Part shown: positions 22,005 through 54,893 of the stretch, piece after piece | Layout of the letters: each line of letters starts with the position of its first letter | Numbering within the stretch: position 1 is the stretch's first letter | NCBI GenBank assembly: GCA_964400685.1 | Contig: CAYNVT010000002.1 | Span: 25,870 to 89,869, forward strand | Source of the DNA: an uncultured Bacteriovoracaceae bacterium | Lineage (GTDB): Bacteria > Desulfobacterota > Desulfomonilia > UBA1062 | DNA: 64,000 nucleotides | Direction: 5' to 3' | The notes under the pieces: generated by a model | What the model was told of the DNA's origin: nothing | The model's input: only the letters and a program-made list of their open reading frames with translations | Database searches by the model: none | Position numbers and translations under genes: made by a program

Positions 22005-22029
22005 TAGGCAAATAAGAGGAGATAAGTAT

Positions 22030-22563: not shown

Positions 22564-22605
22564 GCATACGATTTGTAATAGAAATAGCAATAGGAGGTAC
22601 TGAAA

Positions 22606-23767: not shown

Positions 23768-23949
23768 TAATAACTAAGATTTTCATGCGTATTGAAATAT
23801 TATTTTACTAACTGACACTACAAATTTGTCTAAATAAATCTGATTTTATTCGGAATAATCGCGAAATCAAAAAGATACAATAATATAACATATAGATATT
23901 ATTATTATTCATGTTGGTATGTATATTGCTTAAAAGAATATAAAAAAAT

Positions 23950-24351
23950 ATGGGGAGCCAAAAGGTGAAGAATCTCCTGGTTGTTGATGATGAAGAAAAT
24001 TATAGGTTTTCTATTCAATTCGCATTGAAAAAGCATTACCAGATTTTTCTTGCCCGGAATATGGAAGAGGCATTGGAGATCCTGAAGCGAAATGATGTCA
24101 AGATAGACATGGCACTGATAGATATACGACTGGCAGCCGAGGATGATGAAAATATTGATGGTATAAAAATTCTTGAATGGATTCAAATGAATCAGGAAAA
24201 CATCGATGTGTTTATGATGAGTTCATACAAGGTATTTGACTATGGTATTAAGGCTTTGAACCTTGGCGCCAGACACTTTTTTGAAAAACCACTAGATATT
24301 ATATCACTGAAAACAATACTGAATGAAAAGAGTTCTTCTCATGGGGGATAA
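23950..24351 (+). CDS. single-domain response regulator (REC)
   Basis: LLVVDDEEN ... MALIDIRL ... receiver-domain motifs. Confidence 0.6.
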   Translation: MGSQKVKNLLVVDDEENYRFSIQFALKKHYQIFLARNMEEALEILKRNDVKIDMALIDIRLAAEDDENIDGIKILEWIQMNQENIDVFMMSSYKVFDYGIKALNLGARHFFEKPLDIISLKTILNEKSSSHGG

Positions 24352-27071: not shown

Positions 27072-27072
27072 A

Positions 27073-27834
27073 ATGAATGCCATGGAGATTACTGGACTGA
27101 CAGTTGGTTACAACAAGCGCTCAGTACTGAAGGAGCTCAACCTAAACGTTGAACAGGGTAAAATGATAGCGATTGTTGGACAGAACGGCGCTGGAAAATC
27201 AACGTTTATAAAATCTGTAATGGGATTTGTTCGGCCTTCATATGGCGTTATTAAACTCTTTGGAGAGGATTTAACATCTGGACAGGTAAAAGATAAAATC
27301 AAAAAAGGAATCTATTACTTTATGCAGGGTGGGAAAATATTCCCTTCACTAACAGTTATGGAAAATCTGCTTTTTGCAGGTCACACCATTGATAAAAATA
27401 ATCTGGAATTAAGGATAAATGCAATTCTCAAACTAATTTTTTCTGATAGTGAACAGGAAACAATCCAGGATGGGAAAACCACAAAGGCGCAGTTTTTGAA
27501 AAAAAATGCAACAACCTTGAGCGGCGGAGAAAGACACAAGTTAGCAATTGCCATGGTGCTTTTAAATTATCCAAGGATGTTGCTTCTTGATGAACCTTCT
27601 GCGGGTCTTGCTCCGCAGGATGCAAAGAAAATGTACGATATCCTGAATTCTTACAGAACTGAGCGTCAGATGACAATTATTCTGGTCGAACAGAATGTCA
27701 AGCTTGCTGCTGAAAACAGCGACGAGATGCATCTTTTAATGGGTGGCAGTATTTTACGATCAGTGAGTTGTACAGAACTGAAGTCTTATGACGGTAATAT
27801 TGACATGCAGAAACTGGATAAATTCTTCTTTTAA
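27073..27834 (+). CDS. livF: ABC transporter ATP-binding protein (LivF-like)
   Basis: Walker A GQNGAGKST, signature LSGGERHKLAIAM, Walker B LLLDEPSAG. Start set at the ATG just after the livG stop. The track's upstream extension overlaps livG. Confidence 0.75.
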   Translation: MNAMEITGLTVGYNKRSVLKELNLNVEQGKMIAIVGQNGAGKSTFIKSVMGFVRPSYGVIKLFGEDLTSGQVKDKIKKGIYYFMQGGKIFPSLTVMENLLFAGHTIDKNNLELRINAILKLIFSDSEQETIQDGKTTKAQFLKKNATTLSGGERHKLAIAMVLLNYPRMLLLDEPSAGLAPQDAKKMYDILNSYRTERQMTIILVEQNVKLAAENSDEMHLLMGGSILRSVSCTELKSYDGNIDMQKLDKFFF

Positions 27835-27843: not shown

Positions 27844-29160
27844 ATGAGAATATTATTAGTAAACCCTTATTCATCCTATAAAGCATCTGGAATGAGGTTC
27901 CAGTTGCCGAACCCTGCTTTAGCTTCATTAACTGCCGTATTGAAGGAGGCAGGATTTTTATTGGATTTGTGCGATTTTAATATTTTTGAAAATCCAATGA
28001 TCGGTCACATTGAGAACTATCTTGAAGATAATAATTATTGTGCGGTTGGGATAAGTGTTAGTATCGATACGCTGGAATTCACATCTGGGATTATCAGAAA
28101 AATAAAGAAAATAAATCCCGATTTGCCTGTAGTTATCGGTGGAGTACCCCTTAAATATCAACCTGAGCTGTGGATGAATGAGACAGGAGCCGATATTGGG
28201 GTTATTGGTGAGGGTGAACAGACTGCACCTGAATTATTTACTGCGCTACATAACAAAGTGAACATATCGAACATAAATGGTATTATTTATAAAGAGGACA
28301 ATCAATTATTAGTAACTCCGCAGAGATTGATTTTAACTAGTTTGAACTGCCTGCCGATTTCAGATTATTCACTCTTCGATTTGAAGTCATATTTTTCCAG
28401 TCAGTTCAGCAGGTGGTTATTTAATAATCTGAAAGGTTTTTATGTCATGACTTCAAGAGGGTGTGTGTATAACTGCCATTTCTGCTCCTCTATAGGAGGC
28501 ATAAGGGCACTGACATCCGAGAGGGTAGCGCAGGAAGTATCCATGATTGTCGAAAAATACAAGCTTGAGTCTGTTTTTTTGCGTGATGACATTTTTACAT
28601 ACGATCAGAAAAGGGTGTATGAAATTTCAGAAAAACTAGGAGAGATGAATATACAATGGTTATGCATGTCCCGGCCCAACCTGTTATGTAGGGCAGGTGA
28701 TAAAGACCTCATTATGTATATGGCAAAAAACGATTGTCGAACAATAATGATGGGTATTGAGAGTTATAATCAGGATATTCTTGATAGAAACATGAAAAAA
28801 ATTAATGTGGATGATATTGACAGGGCAATTGATAATTGCCAGTCTGCCGGAATTCGTGTAATTGGCTTCATACTTTTTGGGCTGCCGGGAGAAACAGAAG
28901 AAACCATCAGGAACACGCTTGAATTCATAAAGAAAACCAATATTGATGTATCAGCAAACATACTGCAACCTCTTCCAGGTTCAAAGATTTATGAAGATGC
29001 CATAATTTCCGGGAAGATAAAAAATGAAGTTCAATATCTGAAGGATTTTCATTTGTTTTGGGACAGGGAAGGGGAATATCTGCCTGTAAACATGACATTC
29101 CTTCCGGATAATGTTATTTTAAATGCAGCAAATGAAGCTCAATGCTTTAAAAATAAATAA
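27844..29160 (+). CDS. B12-binding domain radical SAM protein
   Basis: N-terminal B12-binding-like region. Radical SAM motif CVYNCHFCSS (Cx3Cx2C). Confidence 0.7.
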   Translation: MRILLVNPYSSYKASGMRFQLPNPALASLTAVLKEAGFLLDLCDFNIFENPMIGHIENYLEDNNYCAVGISVSIDTLEFTSGIIRKIKKINPDLPVVIGGVPLKYQPELWMNETGADIGVIGEGEQTAPELFTALHNKVNISNINGIIYKEDNQLLVTPQRLILTSLNCLPISDYSLFDLKSYFSSQFSRWLFNNLKGFYVMTSRGCVYNCHFCSSIGGIRALTSERVAQEVSMIVEKYKLESVFLRDDIFTYDQKRVYEISEKLGEMNIQWLCMSRPNLLCRAGDKDLIMYMAKNDCRTIMMGIESYNQDILDRNMKKINVDDIDRAIDNCQSAGIRVIGFILFGLPGETEETIRNTLEFIKKTNIDVSANILQPLPGSKIYEDAIISGKIKNEVQYLKDFHLFWDREGEYLPVNMTFLPDNVILNAANEAQCFKNK

Positions 29161-29177: not shown

Positions 29178-30278
29178 ATGGAAAACAAATTAAAAAAAAT
29201 CATGTTCTTACTTTTAATATGTACAGTCATGATCATTTCCTGTAGTGGCGGTCAGAAAAAGGATAACACAGTCAAGCTGGGGGCAATAATTCCATTGACT
29301 GGTCCAATTGCTCCTATTGGCGAGTTAATGAAAAGCGGTCTCGAACTTGCCAAAGAGGAAATCAATTCACAAAGCGCGCAAACGGGCTTAAAGGTAGAAA
29401 TTGTTTACGGTGATAACAAAGGTTTGCCAAAAGATGCTGTTTCTCAAATTCAAAAACAGATAAGCATTGATAAAATAAAATATTTCATTGTGAGTCCTAC
29501 TCCTGCCTGCATGGCTGTTGCCCCTATCGTTGACAAGGAAAAGGTCATAATGTTTGCCGGTTCGCTGCACCCTTATATTACAGAGCAGAGTAAATATATT
29601 TACCGAACGACCGTAAGTAATGCCGAAGTTGATGAATTGATAGCCAGGTATGCAGAAAAGAATAATTTTAAAAATATTGCTGTCATCTACGTGGAGGATG
29701 ACTTTGGTCAATCATCACTGCAATACTTTAAAAAGGTTTTCAAAGGTAATGTTATAGCAGAAGAACCATACAGCGAAAAAGACAGTGATTTCAGGGAACA
29801 GATATTAAAGATTAAAAAGGCAAATCCTGATGCAATTTTAACTTATGGTTATGGTACTGCTTATCCGATTATTTTAAAACAAATGGTGGAATACAATATA
29901 AATTTGCCAATCCTATCTGATACATCTATGGCCAACCCTCCGGTTCAGGCAGTAATAAACCAATTGCCACAGGCTTTTACAGACAGAATAGTGTTTGCAG
30001 CGCCTCTGTTCAGCAAGAGGTTTGTTGAACTTACAAGAGAGAAATTTTCCAAAGAGGCGAATTTGAATTATGCTTTTACTTATGATTTTGTTAAAATTGT
30101 TTCACAAGCCATTGAAAAAAATGGCAATGATGTCGAAAAAGTAAGGCAATACATTAATAATTTGAAAGATTTTACAGGCGCTGCAGAAAAGATCACTTTC
30201 CTGCCGAACAGAGACACTCGATCTGCTGTAAGACTTATGAAAATGAAGAATGGAAAGATCGTGGAGTTGGATTCTTGA
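29178..30278 (+). CDS. ABC transporter substrate-binding lipoprotein (Liv/amide-type periplasmic binding fold)
   Basis: Signal peptide with LICTVMIISCSG lipobox. Periplasmic binding-protein-like sequence. Last gene of the ABC operon. Confidence 0.65.
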   Translation: MENKLKKIMFLLLICTVMIISCSGGQKKDNTVKLGAIIPLTGPIAPIGELMKSGLELAKEEINSQSAQTGLKVEIVYGDNKGLPKDAVSQIQKQISIDKIKYFIVSPTPACMAVAPIVDKEKVIMFAGSLHPYITEQSKYIYRTTVSNAEVDELIARYAEKNNFKNIAVIYVEDDFGQSSLQYFKKVFKGNVIAEEPYSEKDSDFREQILKIKKANPDAILTYGYGTAYPIILKQMVEYNINLPILSDTSMANPPVQAVINQLPQAFTDRIVFAAPLFSKRFVELTREKFSKEANLNYAFTYDFVKIVSQAIEKNGNDVEKVRQYINNLKDFTGAAEKITFLPNRDTRSAVRLMKMKNGKIVELDS

Positions 30279-30302
30279 TAAGATATTTTTATTGATGCCT
30301 GT

Positions 30303-30333
30303 CAAGAGCTCATCCATAAAAGATGAGCTCTTG
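30303..30333. terminator. perfect 12-bp inverted repeat hairpin (CAAGAGCTCATC-N7-GATGAGCTCTTG) between the ABC operon and the AT-rich island
   Basis: Read directly. 25 nt after the SBP stop. No obvious T-tract, so it could instead be an operator palindrome. Confidence 0.4.
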
Positions 30334-30378
30334 AAATATAACTGCAGCTTGGATAACTATTATGGAGGTTAGTTGAAT

Positions 30379-33345
30379 ATGAATATTAATGATAGCCAGA
30401 ATAAGGTTATAAATACGCTATTTTTCGATTCAAAATATCTGGAGGAATCTATTAATAATAACAGTATTTCTAGATATCTTAAGGAACGCCTAGAAATCAA
30501 AAAAATATTTGGAATAAATTATAGTCTTAAGAGTTTGTTAAATGATTTTACTAAAACTGATGACACAGATTCTGAAAAAACTAATAATCAAATTACTGGG
30601 ACTATTTCTTTTTATGATTCTTCCATAAAAAAATGGATAGATAGTTATATCCTTGAGTTTGGATTATCATCTGCCATGAGTGTGGTACTGAAACAATTCA
30701 AATCTTTTATCGCTGGGAAAGATTGTTATTCGTTAACGGAAATGCTCATTGATCCACGCAAAGACAATGATCATCTCGTAGAAAAAGAAATTAAAACATG
30801 TAAGTTTGTGAAAACAGATGAAGAAGAATTTGGTATTAGATACCATTTATATTCAAGAGATTCTAATGAGTTTGAATTTGAACATGATGGAAAAAATGTT
30901 ATTAAAATCAAATGTGATTGTAACGAATACAAATGCAATGAAAGGAAGTGTCCATGTTTTAATAAAGATAACTGTATTAAGTTACCCGATATACAAAGTT
31001 GCCTGAATAGAATAATGGTTAAATTCGATGGAGATTATAAGACAATTGACTTTTTAAAAAACATGACAGAAGAAAATGAAGATCGGTATAAAAACCTCTT
31101 CAAAATCCTGTATATTCAACATAAGGTATTTAAATGGAAATATCTTTACTGTTTTGTAGCAACCTCTGATATTCCTGCAGGTGTTATTTATATTTACTCG
31201 CGAAATAGACTTGAATCGGTAGAAATAAATTTCTTCCAGATCCTTGCAAATCAATTATTCCTGCAGTTTGCACAGGGTGTAACTGTTGCAAAAATTAAAA
31301 ATGATACAATAAAATCAGCAATTACTTCTATCCTGGTAGATTCGTTTGCTCACAACATAGCCGCGCACAGCCTTTCTGCTCTTTCCTGGTATTATGCGAA
31401 CAAATCAGAAAAAGAAGTGAAGGCGATACAAAACTTAAAGAAGATTATTGATAATGATATAGAACAAGATGAACAATGGTTGAAAAATATAAATATTGAG
31501 ATAGAAAAATATACGGCATTGGATAAGGATATAGCACATCTACTCAGATATATCAGGAACAAAGCTGCTTTCTGGAGCGGTGTCACACGTGATTTTGCCT
31601 GCGGCGGTGAGATTAAAACATGGTATGAGGTTATCAGCGAATTCATTGCAAATCCGCTATTCTTGGGCACCATTGCCCATTCTGAAGGCGTTAACATAGT
31701 AAAAATCAATGTTAAATATAAAGATTCAAAAAATATGGAGGGGCAAGGAAGCGAAGAGATCGACTTGTCAGCCCTTATAAAGGAAGATAAAGATAGACAA
31801 TATAAATCAATACTGGCCAAGGATAAAATTATCCTGGAAGATATTAAGGATGTTCTTGACTCAGAGGAGTTTAGTGTATTCCTTCCAAATGGTATTGTAG
31901 GTCGTCATGCACTATTTACAATATTTGAAAACACTCTGCGTAATTTTAAGCACGCGATTGATAAAACTCAACCTGTTGATTTCAATGTTTTAATCGAACC
32001 ATCAACTGAGGAAAAATTTCAAGAAAAGCAGTTTAAAGTAACTGTATGGCTGGGCAATAAGTCAAAGATTATGGAAACAAAGACTAAAGACGGAAAAAGT
32101 AAGCTGATAAAAGTTGAAGATGAGTTAAGACGGATAGAAGAACAATCAGTTACCATGGAGTCAGGCTCTCCGCGTATGGGTGGTAGCTCACAGGACAAGA
32201 TATGCGCGTCAATGCTTTATACCAATACATTCAGTAAAGTGCACATGAAGCGAAAAGACGCTCCTTGGATAAAATCTAATGTCGAAGAAGATCAAACATG
32301 TAAAGAAAAAGGGGAAATTAAAAAATCATTTTCAATCTGGAAAGGTGAAATATTTAAAGTATTTAAAGAAATTAAAAGTATAGGTAATGAAGATAATGAA
32401 AATGCAAGCCGTTTCAAGTTCGCAATTGTTCCAGAAAGTACTGAAGAAAAAGAGGAGATTTTTTCCAAGCTGGCAGATCAAGGTGTTATTAGAATCCTGG
32501 AATTGCGAGTGAATGCTGCCAGTATAATAGAAAATGACGGAATTTATAAGCGTTGGAATGGAAGTTGGATTCGTGGAATAAAATCAATTTGTTTGTGTTT
32601 TGGGGATACCCCATTATTTATTATGGATAACAATTTGGCAATTAGAAAACTTAATACAACTGATCTAGAATACAGTAATCTTAGACAAATAATAAAAGAT
32701 AATAAAACCATAGACGGAATAAAGATTATAAAATTCAAGCATGGGAAAGATGACGAAATAGAGAAAAAAGATCAAATTGACCACAGAGGTCAGTGTATAT
32801 TAGGACAGAAATATTTCCCAAGATTTAGTAGAGGATGTCCTGACTGGGATACAAATAAAACCTCCTCCTTCGAGCAGCAGGATTTTATCGAAGCATTGCT
32901 TACAAGGATAAAGATATATGACAATCGCATATTTAATCGAGCATTTGAAAATGGAAAATTGGAATTATTCAAAGAGCATTTATTTTTAGATATTTGTGCT
33001 GAAGAAAATAAAGAAGGTAAGCCTGAGCTCAAAATAGATGAAAACATAAATTTTCTTGTTGTTCACCTCAGTATGATCGAGGCTATGGGTTATACTGAAG
33101 ATAAATTTAACGAATTTATTGAAAGAGAAGTAGTAGAAAAAAAATATTTTAAAGACCATTTCAGGCTTGTTATAACAACAGGAAGAGGAAGATCTGAATG
33201 GAATAGAAATATCAAGCCCGAATATCAAAAATACATAATATTCAGACCGCCGGAATCATTGATGACGGGTATTGAGGATGGCCTGATACTTAAAGATGAT
33301 TTTCAGGTGAAATATAACCTGGTTAAAATACTATTTGGCTCTTAG
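30379..33345 (+). CDS. large Cys-rich hypothetical protein (~988 aa) with possible GHKL-like ATPase segment
   Basis: RBS GGAGGttagttgaatATG. Cys cluster CDCNEYKCNERKCPCFNKDNC. N-box-like FENTLRNFKHAIDKT and Gly-rich ESGSPRMGGSSQ; weak evidence. Very AT-rich with K/N/I-biased composition. Confidence 0.55.
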   Translation: MNINDSQNKVINTLFFDSKYLEESINNNSISRYLKERLEIKKIFGINYSLKSLLNDFTKTDDTDSEKTNNQITGTISFYDSSIKKWIDSYILEFGLSSAMSVVLKQFKSFIAGKDCYSLTEMLIDPRKDNDHLVEKEIKTCKFVKTDEEEFGIRYHLYSRDSNEFEFEHDGKNVIKIKCDCNEYKCNERKCPCFNKDNCIKLPDIQSCLNRIMVKFDGDYKTIDFLKNMTEENEDRYKNLFKILYIQHKVFKWKYLYCFVATSDIPAGVIYIYSRNRLESVEINFFQILANQLFLQFAQGVTVAKIKNDTIKSAITSILVDSFAHNIAAHSLSALSWYYANKSEKEVKAIQNLKKIIDNDIEQDEQWLKNINIEIEKYTALDKDIAHLLRYIRNKAAFWSGVTRDFACGGEIKTWYEVISEFIANPLFLGTIAHSEGVNIVKINVKYKDSKNMEGQGSEEIDLSALIKEDKDRQYKSILAKDKIILEDIKDVLDSEEFSVFLPNGIVGRHALFTIFENTLRNFKHAIDKTQPVDFNVLIEPSTEEKFQEKQFKVTVWLGNKSKIMETKTKDGKSKLIKVEDELRRIEEQSVTMESGSPRMGGSSQDKICASMLYTNTFSKVHMKRKDAPWIKSNVEEDQTCKEKGEIKKSFSIWKGEIFKVFKEIKSIGNEDNENASRFKFAIVPESTEEKEEIFSKLADQGVIRILELRVNAASIIENDGIYKRWNGSWIRGIKSICLCFGDTPLFIMDNNLAIRKLNTTDLEYSNLRQIIKDNKTIDGIKIIKFKHGKDDEIEKKDQIDHRGQCILGQKYFPRFSRGCPDWDTNKTSSFEQQDFIEALLTRIKIYDNRIFNRAFENGKLELFKEHLFLDICAEENKEGKPELKIDENINFLVVHLSMIEAMGYTEDKFNEFIEREVVEKKYFKDHFRLVITTGRGRSEWNRNIKPEYQKYIIFRPPESLMTGIEDGLILKDDFQVKYNLVKILFGS

Positions 33346-33359
33346 GAGGAGACATTATA

Positions 33360-34112
33360 ATGAACAATAGAAGAGTTTTAATTATTACCGTAAAAGATCA
33401 ACAGATAACTGGTAGTGATAACTTTCTGAAAGATTACCAAGTAAATAACTATCAAAAAGATTGTATCAGATTCATAGATCTTCCTAAAGAAGGAAATACA
33501 AAAGAGTCATTTAATGAATTTTTAACTAAAGTTAAAAATAACATAACGAATGAAAAACAAATAAATTATATTGCTCTAATCCATTCTTCCACACAAGTCG
33601 GAGATTCCGAAAACACAATATCAAAAGACGAGTCTTTAAGGAAAAAGATAGAGGAAACATTAGATATTCTTGTAGGATATTTTGAGGGTGGAGATAAAAG
33701 AATAAATAAATTACTTAATGATTTTCATCGTATTGAGCCGGATGCTTTAGAGAATGAAAAAATAAAAGATAATGTATTTAATGATATATGGAATGCATAT
33801 ATTAGAGAATCACCCCAAAAAAAATATTATGATTCTTTAAAGAAGTTCATTCCTGTATTAATTGATTTTCATGGGCTTAACGACTGTTCAAAAAATGAAG
33901 ATGCTTTTATGAATTACCTGAAAGAAGTGAAAAAAGGAAAGAGATGGGATAATCTGGAACCTTCTGAATATGATGAAAATTTAAATATGTTTATTAGCAA
34001 ATGTAAATCGCTTGAAAGCATAAAAAATGTCAAGGAATTCGAAACATGCTTTATTAATGGTGAAAACAACGTATTCAACGAATTCAGAAAATTGAGAAAT
34101 ATCACTGGATAA
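33360..34112 (+). CDS. hypothetical protein (250 aa)
   Basis: RBS GGAGGAGAcattataATG. AT-rich. Confidence 0.5.
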   Translation: MNNRRVLIITVKDQQITGSDNFLKDYQVNNYQKDCIRFIDLPKEGNTKESFNEFLTKVKNNITNEKQINYIALIHSSTQVGDSENTISKDESLRKKIEETLDILVGYFEGGDKRINKLLNDFHRIEPDALENEKIKDNVFNDIWNAYIRESPQKKYYDSLKKFIPVLIDFHGLNDCSKNEDAFMNYLKEVKKGKRWDNLEPSEYDENLNMFISKCKSLESIKNVKEFETCFINGENNVFNEFRKLRNITG

Positions 34113-34114
34113 TA

Positions 34115-34918
34115 TTGATGAGACTGGTCCTTGTAGATAACAATGTCTCTGTAACAAAATCTTTACAGCTTTATTTCAGGAATGTCTTCTATGAGCAGTT
34201 GCTGGTCTATCCGGATGTTCATCAGGAACCGCCTAAGGATGGCGATTCAATAGTCCTTAGAGAGCCGGTAGAGATATATAATGCCCATTATTCGATATAT
34301 TCACAATGGTGCTCATATGCTCTTAAACAGGGCCTTAACCTGCGTATAATAATACTTACAACTGAAGGAGTTGACCAGCTTGAACGAAACCCCTTTTGCA
34401 TCAATATTATTGATTTAAGCAAAACATTACGGGAAAAATTCCAGACAATTTTTTCTTATCCAGCAAAGCCGGATACAACTATTCCTGATAAATCAAATTT
34501 TGACGACATAATTATTCGGCTAAAGACATTTTTCAAGGGGCATGGTGAAGGCAGCCTGATTAAAAACCTCAATGACATCTATCAGGATGTCAGTATGGCA
34601 CCTGTACTGGTTGCGCAAGGCGACAATTCGGTGGAAGAATGCATTGATAAATTAATCCTTAAATGGGCTAAACCAAGATGGGAGATATTCAAGGAACGGT
34701 ATCATAAATATCTTATTTATTTCCGTTATCTTCCATATTATACCGACATATTACTTCTTGCGGAAAATTTTCATACGATTGACAGCTATTTTACAAATAT
34801 ACCGCGGGACGAAAAGGAATTTATCCATACAGATATGAGACCCCCCTTTTTAAAAATACTCAAGACATTGGATGACATTGACAGACTTTATATTAAAAGC
34901 GAGGGGCCAATAAAATAA
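34115..34918 (+). CDS. hypothetical protein (267 aa)
   Basis: Starts 3 nt after the previous stop. Its stop overlaps the start of the sigma54 activator gene (TAATG). Confidence 0.5.
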   Translation: MMRLVLVDNNVSVTKSLQLYFRNVFYEQLLVYPDVHQEPPKDGDSIVLREPVEIYNAHYSIYSQWCSYALKQGLNLRIIILTTEGVDQLERNPFCINIIDLSKTLREKFQTIFSYPAKPDTTIPDKSNFDDIIIRLKTFFKGHGEGSLIKNLNDIYQDVSMAPVLVAQGDNSVEECIDKLILKWAKPRWEIFKERYHKYLIYFRYLPYYTDILLLAENFHTIDSYFTNIPRDEKEFIHTDMRPPFLKILKTLDDIDRLYIKSEGPIK

Positions 34919-36333
34919 TGGCAATTAAAGTTCTTATCATAGACGATGACCCTGCATTCATTGAAAGGGTGAAATTCGGCCTGAAACCCTTCAGATTTAT
35001 CCCGGTTTCCAACATACAGATGGCAAAAGAAATGATTGACGATACCATTGATGTTGTTATGCTTGACCTGAATCTCGACCCCTCCACGGATACAATGGAA
35101 GGCCTCGAATTACTTGACTACCTGAAGAAGGAATACCCTCATATACCTGTAACCGTAATAACAGGCTATGGAAACATTGATGTTGCTGTTGATGCCATGA
35201 AAAGAGGTGCAGACGATTTTCTCAAGAAAAGGGACATGGATATAATCGAATGGCGGAAACGAATTGAAATTTTGGCAAAAACAAAACAGTTGAAGGAACA
35301 GGTTGCAGATTATGAACATGAAAAATATCAGTTTATCGGGAATACACCTGAGATTATCGACATAAAGAAGCACCTTCGAACTATTGGAAATTATCCGGAC
35401 ATTACAGTATTGATTAGAGGTGAAACCGGGGTTGGAAAAGAAGTTGCTGCAAAATACCTGCACAGTCACAGTCCGAGATGCAACAAACCTTTTGTGGTTG
35501 TTAACATCAGTTCTTTTCAACCATCTTTGCTTGAAAGCGCCTTGTTCGGTCATCGTAAGGGCTCTTTTACCGGTGCGGACAGGGACCGTCTTGGCTTTTT
35601 CCGCAAAGCAGATGGAGGTGTGCTGTTTCTTGACGAGATCGGTGATCTGTCTCTCGAAGCCCAGGGAAAGATTCTCCGGTTCCTTCAAGACAGGACCATC
35701 AATATCGTTGGGGAAGAAACAGATCTGTATATAGACGTGCAGGTCATTGCAGCGACAAACAAAAACCTTGAGAGTCTTATCGTTGAGGGAACATTCAGGG
35801 AAGACCTTTATTATAGGATAAAAAACTATACCGTTCTTATTCCTCCTTTAAGACATCGTACTGAAGATATCCCTCCTCTTATAAATCATTTCGCCACAAA
35901 GTTAGATTCAAACAAGGAATCAGGAAAACTTAGTAAGAAAGCCCTTGAAATCCTTATGAACTATGCATGGCCTGGAAATATCCGGGAATTAAAGAATACC
36001 ATAGATTATGCGTTAATAAAAAGTGGCCAGCAATGCATTGAACCTTGCCACCTTCCTGCTGATATAATTAGTTTACCAAAGACTCAGAAAGCGCTTTACG
36101 ATCCAGATATCGAATTTCCACTCGACATTGAAGAAAGGGCGAAAGTTCTCCAGCTAACCCTTATTGATCGGGCTCTCGAAGTTACTTTCGGCAATAAAAG
36201 CAAGACAGCAGAGTTTCTGAACCTCGACCTGGACAAGTTGATGTATAAAATCAAATCTAACCATACAATGATACTGAATGGACCATATGAAAGTATAAAA
36301 ATGTATTATAAAAGTCTTTTCGTTGAAAAATGA
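34918..36333 (+). CDS. sigma-54-dependent transcriptional activator (NtrC family: REC + AAA+ + HTH)
   Basis: REC VLIIDDDPAF ... VVMLDLNL. AAA+ GETGVGKEVAAKYLH, GAF-less ESALFGH, GSFTGA, GGVLFLDEIGDL, RFLQDRT. Confidence 0.8.
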   Translation: MAIKVLIIDDDPAFIERVKFGLKPFRFIPVSNIQMAKEMIDDTIDVVMLDLNLDPSTDTMEGLELLDYLKKEYPHIPVTVITGYGNIDVAVDAMKRGADDFLKKRDMDIIEWRKRIEILAKTKQLKEQVADYEHEKYQFIGNTPEIIDIKKHLRTIGNYPDITVLIRGETGVGKEVAAKYLHSHSPRCNKPFVVVNISSFQPSLLESALFGHRKGSFTGADRDRLGFFRKADGGVLFLDEIGDLSLEAQGKILRFLQDRTINIVGEETDLYIDVQVIAATNKNLESLIVEGTFREDLYYRIKNYTVLIPPLRHRTEDIPPLINHFATKLDSNKESGKLSKKALEILMNYAWPGNIRELKNTIDYALIKSGQQCIEPCHLPADIISLPKTQKALYDPDIEFPLDIEERAKVLQLTLIDRALEVTFGNKSKTAEFLNLDLDKLMYKIKSNHTMILNGPYESIKMYYKSLFVEK

Positions 36334-36363
36334 TTCTTATTTTTGTTAATAAAAGGGGCGTTT

Positions 36364-39012
36364 ATGATTAAAACAATAGATTTCATGGGAAATAATGATT
36401 TATACGAAGCGATATCAGCATACTGCAAATTCAAATCTGAAGGTATTGAACTGATAAAATTAAGCAATATAGACAATACCACGAATAATGTATTGATTGT
36501 TGATCTTCATGATAAGGAAATTGTCAAGTCATTGGGTAAGCATTTAACGAGAACCGGTTCAGAAGAAATCCCTTTCATTGTAATTGTGGGGTTGGAGGAC
36601 AATCTGAATGATTATGATAAGTACATTAATAACCCAATTATTGATGACTTGTCCCCCATCCGACTGATGACACATGCCTGCGGGAAAAGATATTTCAAAT
36701 ACTTCAGCCTGCCGGCTCAAATTTCAGCACTCATATCATTTATCCTTCATGACAAAAAACCATTAAAGAACCCTTTTAAGCATCTTTCCGAAATGGTTAA
36801 TGACTTGCCAACAACAATTAAAGATCCTTTCGAAGATTTCATTATAGAAACAGGAAGATTTACCGACCCTGATTACAGAAGAATGAAGAGAATGAAGGTA
36901 TTTCATGATGACCCAGATAGGCCGAAACATGAGATGCAGTATTATGATTATGTCATCGCTTACCTCAAGTATCAGAGTTCATTAAAAAACGAACCCTTCA
37001 ACATACTGGTTATCGATAATAAACCTGGTGGTGTTAGAATTAAAAGTACAGATGAATCAAATAAACCAGATGATAGTATTATTAAAGGTATAAATAAATC
37101 ACTTCGGGATGCCCTGAAGGACATCGAGAATATATTCAAAGGTTATAAATTCTGGTTAGTTGAAGAAAAAAAGCATTTCAGCGATTTAAAGAATCACCTC
37201 ACTAATTTCCTTCAAGAAAAAAATAGTAAGGATCATGCAATCAATGAAAGGGCAATATTAAGCAAGATTAAGAATACCAGCGGTGAAGATGAGGACAGCA
37301 AACCTTGCAGATTCAATGATATTGATCTCATCCTGATTGATCTCTTTTTAGAAGAGGATGACATGAGCGGTATAGATTTTCTTCATCTGTTCACCCTCCT
37401 TTATCCACAGATCCCGGCCTTTATTCTTAGTAACAGTGAAGACCCTGAGATGATCACAAAAACCATAAAAGAGAAGGCTGATAACTATATTCTTAAAAAA
37501 TGCATCTACTCAATGCCGTTTATTTATTACGATTATATAGAACAGCTCGGAAGACTGGTGGACTACATTGAAGACAAAGACCTGAAGAGAAATCTAATTG
37601 GCAACCTTCGTTACTGGCGATTTAAGAAAGAATTCATCTGGTTTGGTGACAAATGCTACCATATGATCAATCATTCTTTTAATCACACAAATAACAACTG
37701 GCTGTTAGCAAATCAGATTTTACCTCATATCATTGATTATATCGAGCAATCTGAACAGCAATTTTATGATGAAGACATCTATGTCCTAAGTATGGCCATC
37801 TGGTTGCATGACTTGGGTCATAAAGGCAACGAACATTATGGTGAACCCCATGAGATTAGAGATCTCCACGGACTGATCAGCGGGGAGATAATTATGAAAC
37901 ACCCCGAATCATACGGCATTTTCGGGTATAGTGAACAAGAAGGATGTTCATGTGTGTCTCCCTATAGATGGGCATCATTCAGTCACCATAAAACAGCATT
38001 AGAGAGTATAAGAGAGCGTCTGGCAAATATTATGAGTTCATGTTGCATGATGACAAATGTCAATGAAACCACTGATATTAATAGAATATATAAACAGGTA
38101 CGCCGGTTGACTATTCTTGAAAAGATTGCCCTGTTATGCATTTTCCACAAAAGCAACTTTCCATTGGATGAAAAAGATATTCTTCAATTCGGACAGAAGG
38201 GAAAGCGGATACCTCTAGATTGCTATATCAATAATGATCAGACAACAAGTCCTATTCACTTAAAAAGTCTCACAGATATCTTGATTGATGATAATTTCAT
38301 TCGTCTTATGGCCCTCTTCAGATTCATAGATGGTCTGGACATTAATGAAAATCGTGTCGGCGATGGCACTGAGGAGGCAGTGAAGAAAGAAACCATTTTT
38401 AGGGATATTGAATATCAGAAGCTTAAGCTGAAAAGAGAGGTTGAAAGCTTGATAGAAATCAATCTAAGAGAGTCAAATCTTGAAAAGAGGTTTTTTAATC
38501 TCTTCTACGAGAGACCTGTCCAGGATCTTGAGAAAAACACCTGGATAAGTGATGACCTGAAAAAAGAACAGCGTCTGTTTCTTGATACACTGCGGATTAA
38601 CCTGCCACTTGAGAATTATTATACATTATTGGAATACATTGAATTTTTATCAGTTCAAGATGGTCATTTTGGATTGCACAACAGCATTATCAGTGTCGAT
38701 ATTCAACCCATGGTATTACCTGTCGCAAAAGACGGACTTCCATGTTTTAAGGTCAGTTACAAATCATCCAAGAGGAAAGAACAGCTTGAATCTGATGATA
38801 TAAAAGTAAAGATAAGAGGGGAAAAAGATGGAAAATCCATACGAAACCATCTGCTTGGTTTTAAAGATAAAGAAAAGATTGAAGAAGGTTATGTAAGGAA
38901 AGAACTTAACAATGGGAAAATATATTTAAAAGAATGGTTCGAAATAGATTCAACAGAAATTATTATAAAGACCAAAGATGATAAAACTGAAGAAGAAACA
39001 AGAAAAAAATAA
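36364..39012 (+). CDS. large REC-like + HD-domain phosphohydrolase protein (~882 aa)
   Basis: Receiver-like segment DIDLILIDLFLEEDDMSGIDFLHLF. HD motif H-x(n)-HD in NHSFNHT ... AIWLHDLGHKG. No GYP motif seen. Confidence 0.6.
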   Translation: MIKTIDFMGNNDLYEAISAYCKFKSEGIELIKLSNIDNTTNNVLIVDLHDKEIVKSLGKHLTRTGSEEIPFIVIVGLEDNLNDYDKYINNPIIDDLSPIRLMTHACGKRYFKYFSLPAQISALISFILHDKKPLKNPFKHLSEMVNDLPTTIKDPFEDFIIETGRFTDPDYRRMKRMKVFHDDPDRPKHEMQYYDYVIAYLKYQSSLKNEPFNILVIDNKPGGVRIKSTDESNKPDDSIIKGINKSLRDALKDIENIFKGYKFWLVEEKKHFSDLKNHLTNFLQEKNSKDHAINERAILSKIKNTSGEDEDSKPCRFNDIDLILIDLFLEEDDMSGIDFLHLFTLLYPQIPAFILSNSEDPEMITKTIKEKADNYILKKCIYSMPFIYYDYIEQLGRLVDYIEDKDLKRNLIGNLRYWRFKKEFIWFGDKCYHMINHSFNHTNNNWLLANQILPHIIDYIEQSEQQFYDEDIYVLSMAIWLHDLGHKGNEHYGEPHEIRDLHGLISGEIIMKHPESYGIFGYSEQEGCSCVSPYRWASFSHHKTALESIRERLANIMSSCCMMTNVNETTDINRIYKQVRRLTILEKIALLCIFHKSNFPLDEKDILQFGQKGKRIPLDCYINNDQTTSPIHLKSLTDILIDDNFIRLMALFRFIDGLDINENRVGDGTEEAVKKETIFRDIEYQKLKLKREVESLIEINLRESNLEKRFFNLFYERPVQDLEKNTWISDDLKKEQRLFLDTLRINLPLENYYTLLEYIEFLSVQDGHFGLHNSIISVDIQPMVLPVAKDGLPCFKVSYKSSKRKEQLESDDIKVKIRGEKDGKSIRNHLLGFKDKEKIEEGYVRKELNNGKIYLKEWFEIDSTEIIIKTKDDKTEEETRKK

Positions 39013-39105: not shown

Positions 39106-40164
39106 TCATTTTAACCTGCCAAGAAAACGATTTTTAAACGATTTGCCATTTACAGATAAGACGACGGAAACATGTGGTTTCCTTTTGCATACATCGACAT
39201 CTTGCAATAAGGATATGTCGCTCGCGCCCGATTTCGATTTGTTTAATCTTGCATAAGCATCTTTATAAAGCGAATTGTGCCAGGGATTACGCGGACGACG
39301 GTCAATTATTGTCTGACCCAAGGCGATGCCAGGCTCAGTAACAACATCAACTTGATAGGTATCTTGTTTTGTAATCAAATCATCCCAGATGGCCAGGCCT
39401 ACAGCCAGGGGATCATGCAGATAGCAGCCGTTAAAACTTTCGTTTCTGTGATAGAAATCCATATACATCTGGCAAATGTCCCAGGTAAAATTGCTATTCC
39501 CACTTTTGTTCTTAAGGGTGTGCAACTCACTTCGAGTCAGTGGGCATTGCATGCAGGCATCGAGACCGACAACCGTCATTGGGACACCGAAATTAAGGAC
39601 TTCAGCTGCGGCATCGGGATCACAGAATGCATTGAATTCAGCGACCGGTGAAATGTTGCCGTGCTTCTCATAAGCACCGCCCATCCAGATTATTCGTTTG
39701 ACGCGTCTAACCGCCTCCGGATCTTTACTTATGGCAAGGGCGATGTTTGTCAAGGGGGCTGTGGCAACAATCGTGAGGTTCTGCAAGGGGAGTGATCGTA
39801 GGGTTTCCAGGATCAGATCAACGGCCGATTGCTTATCTATTTTATCCGAAGATGGATTCGGATATTTCGCTGAAACATCACCTAGTCCATCGGGACCATG
39901 GATTCCGCCCGCACGAAACGGGCTCCGTTTAACCGGACGCCATGCCCCCATTGCAACAGGCGGTAATGGTTTTCTTTGGACCTGTTCAAGCGTTTTTATG
40001 GCGTTCAGGGCACATTGCTCAACACCTACATTCCCACCGCAAACGGTGATCGCCTTAACGTCTATTTCCGGTGATTTCATTGCAAGCATTATAGCCAGAG
40101 CGTCATCAACGCCTGGGTCCATGTCAAGAAGTATGGGGTGAGATTTAGATGCCGTCTTTTTCAT
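39106..40164 (-). CDS. inosine-uridine-preferring nucleoside hydrolase family protein with C-terminal extension
   Basis: N-terminal ILLDMDPGVDDALAIMLA (DxDxxxDD Ca-binding signature of IUNH). Confidence 0.75.
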   Translation of the reverse strand: MKKTASKSHPILLDMDPGVDDALAIMLAMKSPEIDVKAITVCGGNVGVEQCALNAIKTLEQVQRKPLPPVAMGAWRPVKRSPFRAGGIHGPDGLGDVSAKYPNPSSDKIDKQSAVDLILETLRSLPLQNLTIVATAPLTNIALAISKDPEAVRRVKRIIWMGGAYEKHGNISPVAEFNAFCDPDAAAEVLNFGVPMTVVGLDACMQCPLTRSELHTLKNKSGNSNFTWDICQMYMDFYHRNESFNGCYLHDPLAVGLAIWDDLITKQDTYQVDVVTEPGIALGQTIIDRRPRNPWHNSLYKDAYARLNKSKSGASDISLLQDVDVCKRKPHVSVVLSVNGKSFKNRFLGRLK

Positions 40165-41533
40165 AAGTGCCTTCCTTGCTCTTTAAGTATGTTATAGCTC
40201 TTTCATATTTGGATACTGAGGAAACAGACAGTTCTTTATCCAGACTGCTCAGAAGTTCTGCAATGATGACGATATCTTCTCGTATCATACCCTTACTTTC
40301 TATTTCAATCTCCACATCGGCTCCGATTCGCCTATCATTGATATCATTAAAATACACGTGATCTACACAGACCTCCGCCTGCTGATTTTGCTTGTTGTTA
40401 ATTGTAATAGAAACACGATTGGTGTTAATTTTAACAGCTCTTACAAGAGATTTGCAGTCCGGGGCCAGATAACTGATAAGGCGGCAGGGAAGGGCAGAAA
40501 TGCGCTCTCCTTTTTCGAGTAACTCTTTTTCTTTAATTGAGATAGGAGCTTCTTCTTCCGATCGGCTATACCACATTCCTTTCTCATTGGATGTTGTGTT
40601 TTGAACTTTTGTTTTGAGTGTTATTTGAACATAATCTTTTTTCTCGCGTAAACGAAATGACATTCCTGCATTGAAAAGACAAAAATTGATGTCATCGAAA
40701 TAGGTATCCTTCTGTAAAACTGGTTTGGTTTCCGCAATAATCCCCATATCTAAAGATAATAATCCCTTCCGGCATGCCAAAATCAATTTCTCAAAATCCT
40801 TATCGTTCATGTTTGACCGTAATAGCTTACACTCAATATCGTAAGGAGAAGGGGACTTTTCCGGCGGTTGCGGGATTGTCGATAAATATCTATCCACTAT
40901 TTCATTATATTTTTTTATATAGGGATGAACTGTGTTACGCCTACCTGCTGCATGTTCGAGCTCAGGCAAAGTCCAATAATTTTTACCATGGAAATCATTT
41001 TCCGGATATACAACAGTTTTAATGGTCCCATTTTCGGCATTCCATCTTACCCAATGAAAATGATCTGGGTCGATACCGTTTTTAGTCAGGGGATGAATTC
41101 TGTGATATTGGACTTTTGATTCAACGCCATTGACCTTTTTAATCTTTTCAAATTGTCTGGCAAACAGAGGACTGTGGGAATAATCAGGACGAGGTATGAT
41201 GTAGTATAAATTAGGATTGATGTCTTCTTCCGCTGACAGATTTGAAACCACCATAGTAGGTGTTAAAATAGTATCTATAATATGAATTACACCGCCATCA
41301 TATCGAAAGGAGTATCCATTCATATAGAAGAAAATATCCTGGCAAGAAATAAGAATTCCAAAAGAGTCCTTATTCATAGTCATGCGCCAGTCATCTGGCA
41401 AATACTCGTTTATGTCAGCGACGATACGGACAAACAGTTCAACTGATAATCCTCCACCACGTTCTTTGTGCCTGGCGATAGGATGAATATCTTCAGGATG
41501 TTCTTTATCTTGTGTACGGGAAAAGACAAGCAT
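40145..41533 (-). CDS. two-domain protein: unknown N-terminal domain + C-terminal CYTH (triphosphate tunnel metalloenzyme)-like domain
   Basis: C-terminal half has IAETKPVLQKDTYFDD ... FRLRE ... ITLKTK ... ADVEIEIES, matching the CYTH ExK/RLR/TxK/EIEIE pattern. Overlaps the hydrolase gene by 20 nt. Confidence 0.6.
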   Translation of the reverse strand: MLVFSRTQDKEHPEDIHPIARHKERGGGLSVELFVRIVADINEYLPDDWRMTMNKDSFGILISCQDIFFYMNGYSFRYDGGVIHIIDTILTPTMVVSNLSAEEDINPNLYYIIPRPDYSHSPLFARQFEKIKKVNGVESKVQYHRIHPLTKNGIDPDHFHWVRWNAENGTIKTVVYPENDFHGKNYWTLPELEHAAGRRNTVHPYIKKYNEIVDRYLSTIPQPPEKSPSPYDIECKLLRSNMNDKDFEKLILACRKGLLSLDMGIIAETKPVLQKDTYFDDINFCLFNAGMSFRLREKKDYVQITLKTKVQNTTSNEKGMWYSRSEEEAPISIKEKELLEKGERISALPCRLISYLAPDCKSLVRAVKINTNRVSITINNKQNQQAEVCVDHVYFNDINDRRIGADVEIEIESKGMIREDIVIIAELLSSLDKELSVSSVSKYERAITYLKSKEGTYEKDGI

Positions 41534-53515: not shown

Positions 53516-53541
53516 TAGACGCATTATAGATCAAATATACC

Positions 53542-54816: not shown

Positions 54817-54893
54817 TAAAGCAATCAATTTATTGACAATAAGCTCAGAGAAGCAGTTTTAAGCTGTTTTCAAAATAATATTACAATTAGAAG

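What the first reader, a model, noticed from the sequence alone, without database searches (positions are those of the whole stretch)
30303..39012. Very AT-rich five-gene island: 990-aa Cys-rich protein, two unknowns, sigma54 activator, REC-HD phosphohydrolase
A sharp compositional shift begins right after a perfect 12-bp palindrome at 30303-30333. Genes are tightly packed (3-nt gaps, TAATG overlaps). The island pairs a canonical NtrC-type enhancer-binding protein with an 889-aa protein that has a receiver-like domain and an HD phosphohydrolase motif (WLHDLGHKG). The 990-aa first gene has a Cys cluster and a segment weakly reminiscent of a GHKL/histidine-kinase N-box (FENTLRNFKHAIDKT) plus a Gly-rich loop. 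It looks like a horizontally acquired signalling or defence module whose parts are individually familiar but whose combination is not.
Basis: partly seen in the sequence, partly recalled or inferred. Interest (0 to 1): 0.75.

Follow-up and report, generated by a model that had tools for sequence, protein, structure and literature searches.

The report
Divergent kinase–sigma54 signalling system with effectors
The five genes are the centre of a much larger, conserved and apparently undescribed bacterial signalling system, built on a histidine kinase too divergent for sequence databases to recognise, that probably switches on both sigma-54 transcription and a nucleotide-degrading enzyme, much as some anti-phage two-component systems do.

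Summary
The five ORFs are real, but the 'very AT-rich island' is overstated. Only genes A and B are AT-rich, and the hairpin at 30302-30334 is not a functional boundary.

- **B and C:** dark families, each with one invariant His. C is fused to sigma54 AAA+ activators in seven loci.
- **D:** a canonical REC-sigma54 activator.
- **E:** REC plus an HD phosphohydrolase of the HD-CE family, not HD-GYP.

The A-B-C-D order recurs across about 118 species (Bacteroidota, Ignavibacteria, Cloacimonadota, Aminicenantes). In the window's lineage the conserved unit spans about 23.85-48.9 kb:
- candidate activator sites and a sigma54 promoter
- a standalone REC and a Liv-type ABC importer
- a radical-SAM enzyme and a lipoprotein binding protein
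- A to E
- a nucleoside hydrolase and a CYTH protein
- a CorA-like membrane protein
- a vWA and tubulin-like pair

Other loci carry TIR, HD-CE-kinase or deaminase genes where E sits.

Best reading: a branched phosphorelay resembling Detocs, with added sigma54 autoregulation. It is probably a stress or conflict-response system. No description was found in the literature searched.

The parts
23849..23865 (+). Candidate upstream activator site, TTCGGAATAATCGCGAA (half-sites TTCGGAA / TCGCGAA)
   Evidence: TTCG(G/T)AA / TTACGAA half-sites recur 55-90 bp upstream of the -24 element in the window, L001, L012, L075 and L081. Nine were observed against 0.42 expected. The pattern was defined post hoc.
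23915..23930 (+). Sigma54-type -24/-12 promoter-like element TGGTATGTATATTGCT
   Evidence: The only exact TGGYAY-N5-TTGC match in the 64 kb. It is intergenic, 20-35 nt before the REC start. A similar element occupies the same place in 7 of 8 REC-headed operons.
23950..24351 (+). Standalone receiver (REC) protein, 133 aa
   Evidence: Response_reg E 2.7e-17. DD13/14, D58, S and K residues are present. It heads the operon in relatives.
24323..27834 (+). Liv-type ABC importer: two BPD_transp_2 permeases and two ABC ATPases
   Evidence: Pfam. Syntenic with A in 12 of 56 loci that have upstream sequence.
27844..29160 (+). B12-binding radical SAM enzyme
   Evidence: Pfam B12-binding + Radical_SAM. 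A radical SAM, methyltransferase or Glycos_transf_3 gene holds this slot in relatives.
29178..30278 (+). Lipoprotein substrate-binding protein (Peripla_BP_6)
   Evidence: Pfam E 1.2e-41. It has a signal peptide with an IISC lipobox.
30302..30334 (+). Stable 13-bp hairpin between the binding-protein gene and A, with no U-tract
   Evidence: Not conserved in L001.
30373..33345 (+). A: cytoplasmic divergent histidine kinase (variable N-terminus, GAF-like, DHp with His325, CA domain, conserved about 300-aa C-terminal domain)
33360..34112 (+). B: unknown 250-aa partner of A, invariant His75
   Evidence: Follows A in 55 of 62 loci. No Pfam or PDB match. Alignment A2.
34115..34918 (+). C: unknown two-domain 267-aa protein, invariant His142 (FFxGHG)
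   Evidence: Present in 52 of 62 loci. Fused to the N-terminus of a sigma54 AAA+ activator in 7 loci. No Pfam or PDB match.
34918..36333 (+). D: REC-AAA+-HTH sigma54 enhancer-binding protein
   Evidence: Pfam and NCBIfam. D50, Walker A GETGVGKE and GSFTGA were read. Follows C in 49 of 62 loci.
36343..39012 (+). E: variable N-terminal domain + REC (D333, K385) + HD phosphohydrolase (HD-CE family) + C-terminal domain
39106..40164 (-). Inosine-uridine-type nucleoside hydrolase
   Evidence: Pfam E 2.8e-87. Fused to CYTH in L001. Adjacent to an E homolog in L086. Fused to one E homolog.
40145..41533 (-). CYTH (triphosphate tunnel) domain protein
   Evidence: Pfam. A homolog directly follows E in L083.
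41977..43215 (+). 412-aa protein with two C-terminal TM helices, weakly CorA-like
   Evidence: PADLOC CorA-like E 1e-4. TM helices. A homolog follows E in L082 (E 1e-96).
43498..45633 (+). vWA-domain protein with N-terminal hydrophobic segment
   Evidence: Pfam. Homologs are downstream in L012, L075, L083 and L084.
45665..48862 (+). Tubulin_2 (tubulin/FtsZ-like) 1065-aa protein
   Evidence: Pfam E 1.5e-25. Pairs with vWA in L075, L083 and L084; Tubulin_2 also lies near the system in L003 (with a Trypsin/vWA protein) and in L082.

Best explanation
The five genes are the core of a larger operon-like system of about 25 kb (window about 23.85-48.9 kb), built as a branched two-component phosphorelay.

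Shown by the analyses:
- A has a histidine-kinase architecture with an invariant DHp histidine.
- D is a REC-sigma54 activator.
- E is a REC-HD phosphohydrolase.
- A standalone REC heads the operon, behind a conserved sigma54-type promoter with candidate activator sites.
- A-B-C-D is a conserved gene cassette.

Inferred:
- A, together with its obligate partners B and C, senses a cytoplasmic signal. The signal may derive from what the Liv-type importer brings in and the adjacent radical-SAM or methyltransferase enzyme modifies. A then autophosphorylates on His325.
- The phosphoryl group goes to three receivers.
- Receiver 1 is D, which activates the sigma54 promoter at 23915 and so amplifies expression of the whole operon.
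- Receiver 2 is E, whose HD domain is switched on to hydrolyse a nucleotide substrate. It probably works with the adjacent CYTH and nucleoside-hydrolase enzymes.
- Receiver 3 is the standalone REC, acting as a phosphate buffer.
- C probably docks on D's AAA+ domain, because in seven loci it is fused to such a domain.
- Other lineages place TIR, HD-CE-kinase or deaminase genes where E sits. The system is therefore more likely a stress or invader (conflict) response than a nutrient regulon.
For: **A is kinase-like.**
- Model pTM 0.72.
- Foldseek top hits are histidine kinases (4gcz E 1.2e-5; HprS, CckA).
- Invariant H325 lies in DSFAHNIxAHSL. There is an N-box ENTLRNxKH, and a GG/Q motif at 601-605.

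**Receivers.**
- D.
- Standalone REC.

**Cassette conservation.**
- 118 relatives among 185,579 species genomes.
- B, C and D follow A in 55, 52 and 49 of 62 loci.
- C-AAA+ fusions.

**Promoter.**
- A unique exact site in the window.
- The same element 10-47 nt before REC in 7 of 8 loci. The background chance is 0.010 per 60 nt.
- Half-site repeats: 9 observed against 0.42 expected.

**Effector variability and nucleotide theme.**
- HD-CE+TCAD9+APH-like kinase, a deaminase, and LRR-TIR in other loci.
- IUNH and CYTH linked to E in the window, L001, L083 and L086, and in one fusion.

**Neighbourhood.** HerA-like, TPR-CHAT and AAA_14-DUF4143 genes lie nearby.

**Analogy.** Detocs uses a kinase, a standalone REC buffer and a REC-effector (bioRxiv 10.1101/2023.01.24.525353).
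Against: - No biochemical evidence exists.
- A matches no HisKA or HATPase_c profile, in any of 34 family members. A canonical G1 box (DxGxG) is not evident, so A could be a pseudokinase or a non-kinase ATPase.
- The functions of B, C and A's C-terminal 300 residues are unknown. Profile comparison found no similarity to REC or to each other.
- No PADLOC defence model matched beyond generic sigma54-AAA, radical-SAM and weak CorA-like hits.
- The sigma54 pattern and half-sites were defined post hoc on related loci, so the P-values are optimistic. A 68-locus test was weak: 7 plus-strand against 2 minus-strand sites at score >= 13.
- The -12 element is degenerate in most relatives.
- An extracytoplasmic lipoprotein binding protein and an importer fit a metabolic regulon equally well.
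- It is not known whether the genome encodes sigma54.
Confidence: 0.5

Rival explanations
1. This is an ordinary nutrient-sensing, NtrBC-like two-component regulon. The kinase senses the availability of a solute imported by the Liv-type transporter. D activates the sigma54 promoter to express the transporter and salvage enzymes (HD nucleotidase, CYTH, nucleoside hydrolase) for nucleoside or nucleotide scavenging.
For: - The sigma54 promoter-like site sits directly upstream of the REC/ABC-transporter genes.
- The binding protein is a secreted lipoprotein.
- The ABC genes are syntenic with A in several phyla.
- IU_nuc_hydro is classically a salvage enzyme.
- No PADLOC system matched.
Against: - In most loci (38 of 56 with upstream sequence) there is no transporter. 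Instead an unrelated helical protein 'U' precedes A.
- The slot after D holds TIR, HD-CE+TCAD9+kinase or deaminase proteins in other lineages.
- vWA + tubulin-like and CorA-like membrane genes co-travel with the system.
- Three extra dark proteins (B, C and A's C-terminal domain) are unnecessary for a simple regulon.
Confidence: 0.25
2. A is not a phosphotransfer kinase. It is a GHKL-type ATPase or pseudokinase scaffold. B and C, each with one invariant His, are the real sensing or catalytic subunits. D is then controlled mainly through C docking on its AAA+ domain, and the receivers act as kinase-independent switches.
For: - A lacks sequence-level HisKA/HATPase_c membership and a clear G1 box.
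- C replaces REC as the N-terminal module of sigma54 AAA+ proteins in 7 loci.
- B is A's most constant partner.
- The Aravind group has proposed kinase-independent receiver domains in conflict systems (PMC8195603).
Against: - The DHp-like helix carries an invariant His in an H-box-like motif. The N-box and G2-like residues are invariant.
- The receivers keep all phospho-acceptor residues: D333/K385 in E, D58 in the standalone REC, D50 in D.
Confidence: 0.15
3. This is a recently acquired genomic island or mobile-element cargo, delimited by the palindrome.
For: A and B are AT-rich: 0.326 and 0.276 against a mean of 0.391. The surrounding region contains other accessory-looking genes.
Against: - Synteny crosses the palindrome in relatives from other lineages.
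- C, D and E have average composition and codon usage.
- No tRNA was found.
- The plasmid collection gave no match.
- The hairpin is not conserved in L001.
Confidence: 0.05

Closest known systems
Detocs (defensive two-component system; DtcA kinase, DtcB standalone receiver, DtcC receiver-effector; Rousset et al., bioRxiv 10.1101/2023.01.24.525353)
   Same: - A cytoplasmic histidine kinase.
- A standalone receiver that could buffer stray phosphorylation.
- A receiver fused to a nucleotide-targeting enzyme.
- Effector domains swapped between lineages.
   Different: - The kinase here is a different, sequence-undetectable family with an extra 300-residue domain. No TPR sensor was detected.
- Two obligate dark partners (B, C) are present.
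- A REC-sigma54 activator with a sigma54 promoter adds a transcriptional arm.
- The effector is an HD phosphohydrolase, with separate CYTH and nucleoside-hydrolase genes, rather than a PNP ATP nucleosidase.
- The system is embedded in a 25-kb unit with an ABC importer and a vWA/tubulin pair.
- No homology to Dtc proteins was shown.
NtrB-NtrC type sigma54 two-component systems
   Same: D has the full REC-AAA+(GAFTGA-like)-HTH_8 architecture. There is a -24/-12 promoter with upstream repeated half-sites. An operon that includes its own regulators is probably autoregulated.
   Different: - The partner kinase is not an NtrB-like HisKA/HATPase_c protein by sequence.
- There are additional receivers with enzymatic output.
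- C is an extra AAA+-associated module.
RtcR-RtcBA (sigma54 activator with a CARF sensor controlling an RNA-damage response)
   Same: Both use a sigma54 AAA+ activator to mount a stress or conflict response. In both, a non-REC sensor module can be fused N-terminally to the AAA+ domain (here C, in seven loci). The best PADLOC hit of D is the RtcR_PspF2 model, over the AAA-HTH part only.
   Different: D carries REC, not CARF. Nothing shows that C is CARF-like. No RtcB or RtcA genes are present.
vWA-centred 'ternary' and GTPase/tubulin conflict systems (Kaur et al. 2020, PMC7159879)
   Same: They share an effector vocabulary in related loci (TIR, HD-CE, TCAD9, APH-like kinase, deaminase). A vWA + tubulin-like pair lies in the neighbourhood.
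   Different: No MoxR ATPase or GTPase core was found in 23.9-48.9 kb. That paper reports no histidine kinase among vWA-associated effectors, and its main text does not mention sigma54.
REC-HD / HD-GYP response regulators (e.g. RpfG-type)
   Same: A receiver controls an HD-superfamily metal-dependent phosphohydrolase.
   Different: The GYP motif is absent. The HD domain belongs to the HD-CE Pfam family. There are large extra N- and C-terminal domains.

Membership tests
Two-component histidine kinases (DHp + CA/GHKL) | CA domain with the Bergerat (GHKL) ATP-binding fold | tested here: met
Two-component histidine kinases (DHp + CA/GHKL) | Helical DHp hairpin carrying a conserved phospho-acceptor His | tested here: met
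   Long helix 280-359 plus helices 365-404. His325 is invariant in 34 sequences, within DSFAHNIxAHSL. Phosphorylation itself was not tested.
Two-component histidine kinases (DHp + CA/GHKL) | Sequence membership in HisKA/HATPase_c-type profiles; N, G1 and G2 boxes | tested here: inconclusive
   No Pfam or NCBIfam hit in A or in any of 34 homologs. N-box-like ENTLRNxKH and a GG motif at 601-602 are invariant, but no DxGxG G1 box is evident.
Two-component histidine kinases (DHp + CA/GHKL) | Autophosphorylation and transfer to a receiver Asp | not testable with these tools
   Needs biochemistry.
NtrC-family sigma54 enhancer-binding proteins (gene D) | REC + Sigma54_activat AAA+ with a GAFTGA-type loop + Fis-type HTH | tested here: met
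   Pfam gives REC 2.5e-15, Sigma54_activat 2.4e-59, AAA_lid_14 1e-22 and HTH_8 2.1e-5. GSFTGA and Walker A were read from the sequence. The protein scores below every NCBIfam equivalog cut-off, so it is no named orthologue.
Sigma54-dependent promoter | TGGCAC-N5-TTGC at -24/-12, upstream of a gene and conserved | tested here: met
   The exact relaxed consensus occurs once in the window, at 23915. A positional counterpart exists in 7 of 8 REC-headed loci. The -12 GC is degenerate in several. The transcription start and sigma54 dependence were not tested.
HD superfamily phosphohydrolase (gene E) | H...HD...D metal-ligand motif in an all-helical domain | tested here: met
Pfam HD-CE (PF24391) | Score above the gathering threshold | tested here: inconclusive
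   The window's E scores 22.3 bits against a cut-off of 27. However, 20 of 43 homologs match, with a best E of 7e-12.
HD-GYP phosphodiesterases | HD plus the downstream GYP motif | tested here: not met
   The consensus of the 43-sequence E-family alignment has no GYP motif.
Receiver domains (E, D, standalone REC) | (beta/alpha)5 fold with an acidic pair, phospho-acceptor Asp, Ser/Thr and Lys | tested here: met
- Standalone REC: D13/D14, D58, K.
- D: D9-D11, D50.
Detocs | Kinase + standalone REC + REC-effector encoded together | tested here: met
   All three kinds of gene lie in one co-directional run. The standalone REC is 6 kb upstream of A rather than adjacent.
Detocs | Homology to DtcA, DtcB and DtcC | tested here: inconclusive
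   No PADLOC model other than sigma54-AAA models matched A-E or the standalone REC at meaningful E-values. I could not verify that this PADLOC release holds Detocs models. A has no TPR hit.
MoxR-vWA ternary conflict systems | MoxR AAA+ ATPase + vWA + a third core component | tested here: not met
   vWA is present, but no MoxR-type ATPase occurs among the ORFs of 23.9-48.9 kb.
Mobile genomic island | Flanking tRNA, integrase or repeats; foreign composition; presence/absence polymorphism | tested here: not met
   No tRNA. The composition of C-E is average. Synteny continues across the proposed boundary. No plasmid match. Strain-level polymorphism was not testable.

The most novel reading that the evidence does not exclude
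A-B-C is a previously unrecognised class of cytoplasmic danger sensor built on a cryptic histidine-kinase scaffold.

Together with a sigma54 activator it would form a new family of defensive two-component systems in Bacteroidota, Ignavibacteria, Cloacimonadota and Aminicenantes. These systems would combine a fast post-translational arm with a transcriptional amplification arm. The fast arm is a set of receiver-gated, lineage-swapped effectors acting on nucleotides or NAD: HD-CE, TIR, a deaminase, and a nucleoside hydrolase with CYTH. The amplification arm is the sigma54 positive-feedback loop.

The system may be triggered by a small molecule that is imported by a dedicated ABC transporter and modified by a radical-SAM or methyltransferase enzyme.
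Probability: 0.3. Interest if true: 0.85.

Novelty: new variant of a known kind. Interest (0 to 1): 0.68.

Why it matters
- It would add a second, architecturally richer example of two-component signalling used as an effector-bearing response system. Detocs is the only one I found that has been characterised.
- It would be the first such system to couple sigma54-dependent transcription to receiver-gated enzymes.
- It defines at least five conserved protein families with no annotation: A, B and C in the window, plus 'F' and 'U' in relatives.
- It shows that a genuine histidine-kinase fold can be invisible to Pfam and NCBIfam. Censuses of two-component systems in the FCB group would therefore undercount such kinases.
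- The conserved promoter and activator-site architecture, together with the invariant His and Asp residues, give directly testable hypotheses.

Tried and rejected
- **Sequence-family searches.** Pfam, NCBIfam and PADLOC on A, B and C, run singly and across all alignment members, gave nothing consistent.
- **PDB profile searches.** A1, A2, A3 and E gave nothing.
- **Profile-profile comparisons.** A, B and C against each other, and against a REC profile built from these loci, gave no significant similarity. The idea that B or A's C-terminus is a degenerate receiver with His in place of Asp is therefore unsupported at sequence level.
- **Structure prediction of B and C.** The permitted homolog sets were too shallow: 9 and 4 clusters, with an effective depth of about 2. 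The last job went to E instead.
- **Global sigma54 test.** A test at 'operon starts' over 68 loci was weak. Only the positional analysis in REC-headed loci was informative.
- **Strict sigma54 consensus.** It is not repeated upstream of REC in other loci.
- **Hairpin as terminator.** It has no U-tract and was not detected by the scan.
- **Rfam and tRNA scans.** Nothing found.
- **Organism identity.** Not recovered.
- **Literature searches.** Searches for sigma54 plus defence, and for HD-CE/TCAD9, found no description of this system.
Full report
**1. The observation**

The five + strand ORFs exist as described: A 30373/30379-33345, B 33360-34112, C 34115-34918, D 34918-36333 and E 36343-39012. 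They are separated by 14 nt, 2 nt, a 1-nt overlap and 9 nt.

The palindrome is a perfect 13-bp inverted repeat with a 7-nt loop at 30302-30334. It folds stably (z = -3.1 against shuffles). It has no U-tract and is not called a terminator.

The compositional claim is overstated. The stretch is 0.348 GC against 0.388 for the window. Per gene, only A (0.326) and B (0.276) are low. C, D and E (0.372, 0.404, 0.355) sit within one SD of the 41-gene mean of 0.391 +/- 0.046, and codon usage is unremarkable.

The Cys cluster is real but lies in a low-confidence, non-conserved part of A.

**2. What the five proteins are**

*D.* D is a textbook REC-AAA+-HTH sigma54 activator (Sigma54_activat E 2.4e-59). 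It scores below every NCBIfam equivalog cut-off.

*E.*
- E belongs to a family of 182 representative clusters.
- The invariant residues are the receiver Asp333 and Lys385 and a full set of HD metal ligands (H444, H448, H489, D490, H509, H602, D663). There is no GYP motif.
- Of 43 homologs, 27 match Response_reg and 20 match Pfam HD-CE, with a best E of 7e-12.
- The AlphaFold model is very confident (pLDDT 84, pTM 0.89).

*A.*
- A has no hit in Pfam, NCBIfam, PADLOC or PDB sequences. This holds for the window protein and for all 34 aligned homologs.
- Its model (pTM 0.72) shows a long helical hairpin followed by an alpha/beta sandwich.
- Foldseek's top hits are sensor histidine kinases (E 1.2e-5).
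- The alignment has an invariant His325 in an H-box-like motif (DSFAHNIxAHSL), an N-box-like ENTLRNxKH, and a GG/Q motif.
- A further about 300 C-terminal residues are highly conserved (D848, R850, H896, G935, R936) and confidently modelled, but matched nothing.

*B and C.*
- Both are dark families.
- Each has a single invariant histidine: B His75 and C His142.
- None of A to E has a TM segment.

**3. Real extent and conservation**

The A family is rare. It has 57 clusters among 5.8 billion proteins, and 118 relatives among 185,579 species genomes. Most are Saprospiraceae/Lewinellaceae and other Bacteroidota, Ignavibacteria, Cloacimonadota and Aminicenantes.

Gene order was analysed on 81 loci. 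Of 62 loci with enough downstream sequence, B follows A in 55, C in 52 and D in 49. In seven loci C is fused to the N-terminus of a sigma54 AAA+ protein. That is direct evidence that C works with the activator.

E is not core. Among the A loci it occurs only in the window and its closest relative, L001/L002.

The unit does not start at the palindrome. In relatives whose A is 30-36% identical, the same upstream genes precede A: REC, two permeases, two ATPases, a radical-SAM or methyltransferase gene, and Peripla_BP_6.

The contexts of E homologs extend the unit downstream:
- CYTH, a homolog of the 412-aa membrane protein, and the vWA + Tubulin_2 pair recur.
- A nucleoside hydrolase is adjacent to an E homolog in L086, fused to CYTH in L001, and fused to one E homolog.

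The conserved unit in the window is therefore about 23.85-48.9 kb.

Most Bacteroidota loci use a different frame, U-A-B-C-D-F. U is a 400-480-aa helical protein with a weak polyprenyl-synthase resemblance. F is a protein with a conserved domain of about 560 aa. Neither family has an annotation, and neither is present in the window.

**4. Cis elements**

The only exact match to TGGYAY-N5-TTGC in the 64 kb is at 23915-23929. It is intergenic, just upstream of the standalone REC that heads the run. One match somewhere in the window is not surprising by itself: 44 of 100 shuffles gave at least one.

A similar element lies 10-47 nt before the REC start in 7 of 8 REC-headed operons. The background rate is 0.010 per 60 nt.

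TTCG(G/T)AA / TTACGAA half-sites, spaced 10-11 bp apart, lie 55-90 bp further upstream in five of them. Nine were observed against 0.42 expected. In the window this is TTCGGAATAATCGCGAA at 23849-23865.

Both patterns were defined after seeing the sites, and the loci are related. The P-values are therefore optimistic. A broader 68-locus test was weak.

**5. Why it looks like a conflict system**

In other lineages the slot after D holds proteins with known conflict-system effector domains:
- HD-CE + TCAD9 + an APH-like kinase
- a cytidine-deaminase-like protein
- the F protein extended by LRR + TIR

In the window, E is flanked by a nucleoside hydrolase, a CYTH enzyme, a CorA-like two-TM protein and a vWA/tubulin-like pair. 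The wider window holds a HerA-like ATPase, a TPR-CHAT protease and two AAA_14-DUF4143 ATPases.

Against this reading, no PADLOC system model matched. The binding protein is a secreted lipoprotein, which also fits a metabolic role.

**6. Most likely mechanism**

*Shown:* the domain identities, the conserved residues, the gene linkage and the promoter-like architecture.

*Inferred:*
- A, with B and C, senses a cytoplasmic signal and autophosphorylates on His325.
- The phosphoryl group is passed to D. D then activates the sigma54 promoter at 23915 and amplifies the whole operon.
- It is also passed to E, switching on nucleotide hydrolysis that CYTH and the nucleoside hydrolase would complete.
- It is also passed to the standalone REC, which acts as a buffer.

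This is the logic shown experimentally for Detocs, with its kinase DtcA, buffer receiver DtcB and receiver-effector DtcC (bioRxiv 10.1101/2023.01.24.525353). Here a transcriptional arm is added.

**7. Rivals**

- A plain nutrient regulon (0.25).
- A non-kinase scaffold model in which B and C carry out the sensing (0.15).

**8. Comparison with what is known, and novelty**

D is an ordinary family member. E is a member of an existing but uncharacterised family (HD-CE, annotated by one source only as 'CheY-like'). A is a histidine kinase by fold but not by any sequence model.

I found no paper describing this cassette. The Aravind-group conflict-system papers report no histidine kinases among vWA-associated effectors, and their main text does not mention sigma54. 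Searches combining sigma54 with defence returned nothing relevant.

I classify it as a new variant of a known kind: an effector-bearing two-component system.

**9. Limits**

- There is no experimental evidence.
- B, C and A's C-terminal domain remain unassigned.
- The source organism is unidentified.
- It is unknown whether the genome encodes sigma54.

Noticed in passing
window 14148-16859 (+) and 5878-9093 (+): A 903-aa TPR + CHAT (caspase-like protease) protein and a 1071-aa HerA-like (DUF87) ATPase lie upstream. Both are typical of conflict or defence loci, so much of the window may be a defence-rich region.
   Followed up: no
window 20193-23124 (+): A two-AAA Clp/Hsp100-like ATPase (603 aa), a ClpP protease and a dCTP-deaminase-like gene sit immediately upstream of the operon. 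Whether they are housekeeping or linked to the system is unknown.
   Followed up: no
window 23150-23767 (+): This is the most AT-rich ORF in the window (GC 0.267, 205 aa, no Pfam hit). It lies just before the sigma54 promoter. Its only detected homolog among the loci sits inside the operon of L075, between the second ABC ATPase and the binding protein.
   Followed up: partly
window 39106-41533 (-): The nucleoside hydrolase and the CYTH protein are separate ORFs that overlap by 20 nt. In L001 they form one 802-aa fusion protein. The window copy may be a split or frameshifted version.
   Followed up: no
L014:10448-10463 and L028:5901-5916: A perfect sigma54 consensus, TGGTACATAATTTGCA, lies at the A-B junction in two Saprospiraceae loci. 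This suggests an internal sigma54 promoter driving B, C and D there.
   Followed up: no
L086:16328-22003 (-): A 1891-aa protein fuses RNA-polymerase beta-like and beta'-like domains. It sits next to a sigma54 activator and an E homolog with a nucleoside hydrolase. This is an unusual small fused RNAP.
   Followed up: no
L030:8495-11119 region; proteins P0010, P0016: Some A homologs are much longer (1400-1860 aa) and carry N-terminal methyltransferase domains. In them, the enzyme that is a separate upstream gene in other loci is fused to the kinase.
   Followed up: no
L001:974-1516: A group II intron-type reverse transcriptase fragment (RVT_1/GIIM) lies upstream of the closest relative's operon.
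   Followed up: no
window 52402-59793: A truncated DnaB_C-only protein (237 aa) and two paralogous AAA_14-DUF4143 ATPases (424 and 435 aa) lie here. GC then jumps to about 0.50 at 60-64 kb, where a BamA/Omp85 gene sits.
   Followed up: no
window 1-64000: No Rfam family reaches its gathering score and no tRNA is present in the whole 64 kb.
   Followed up: yes
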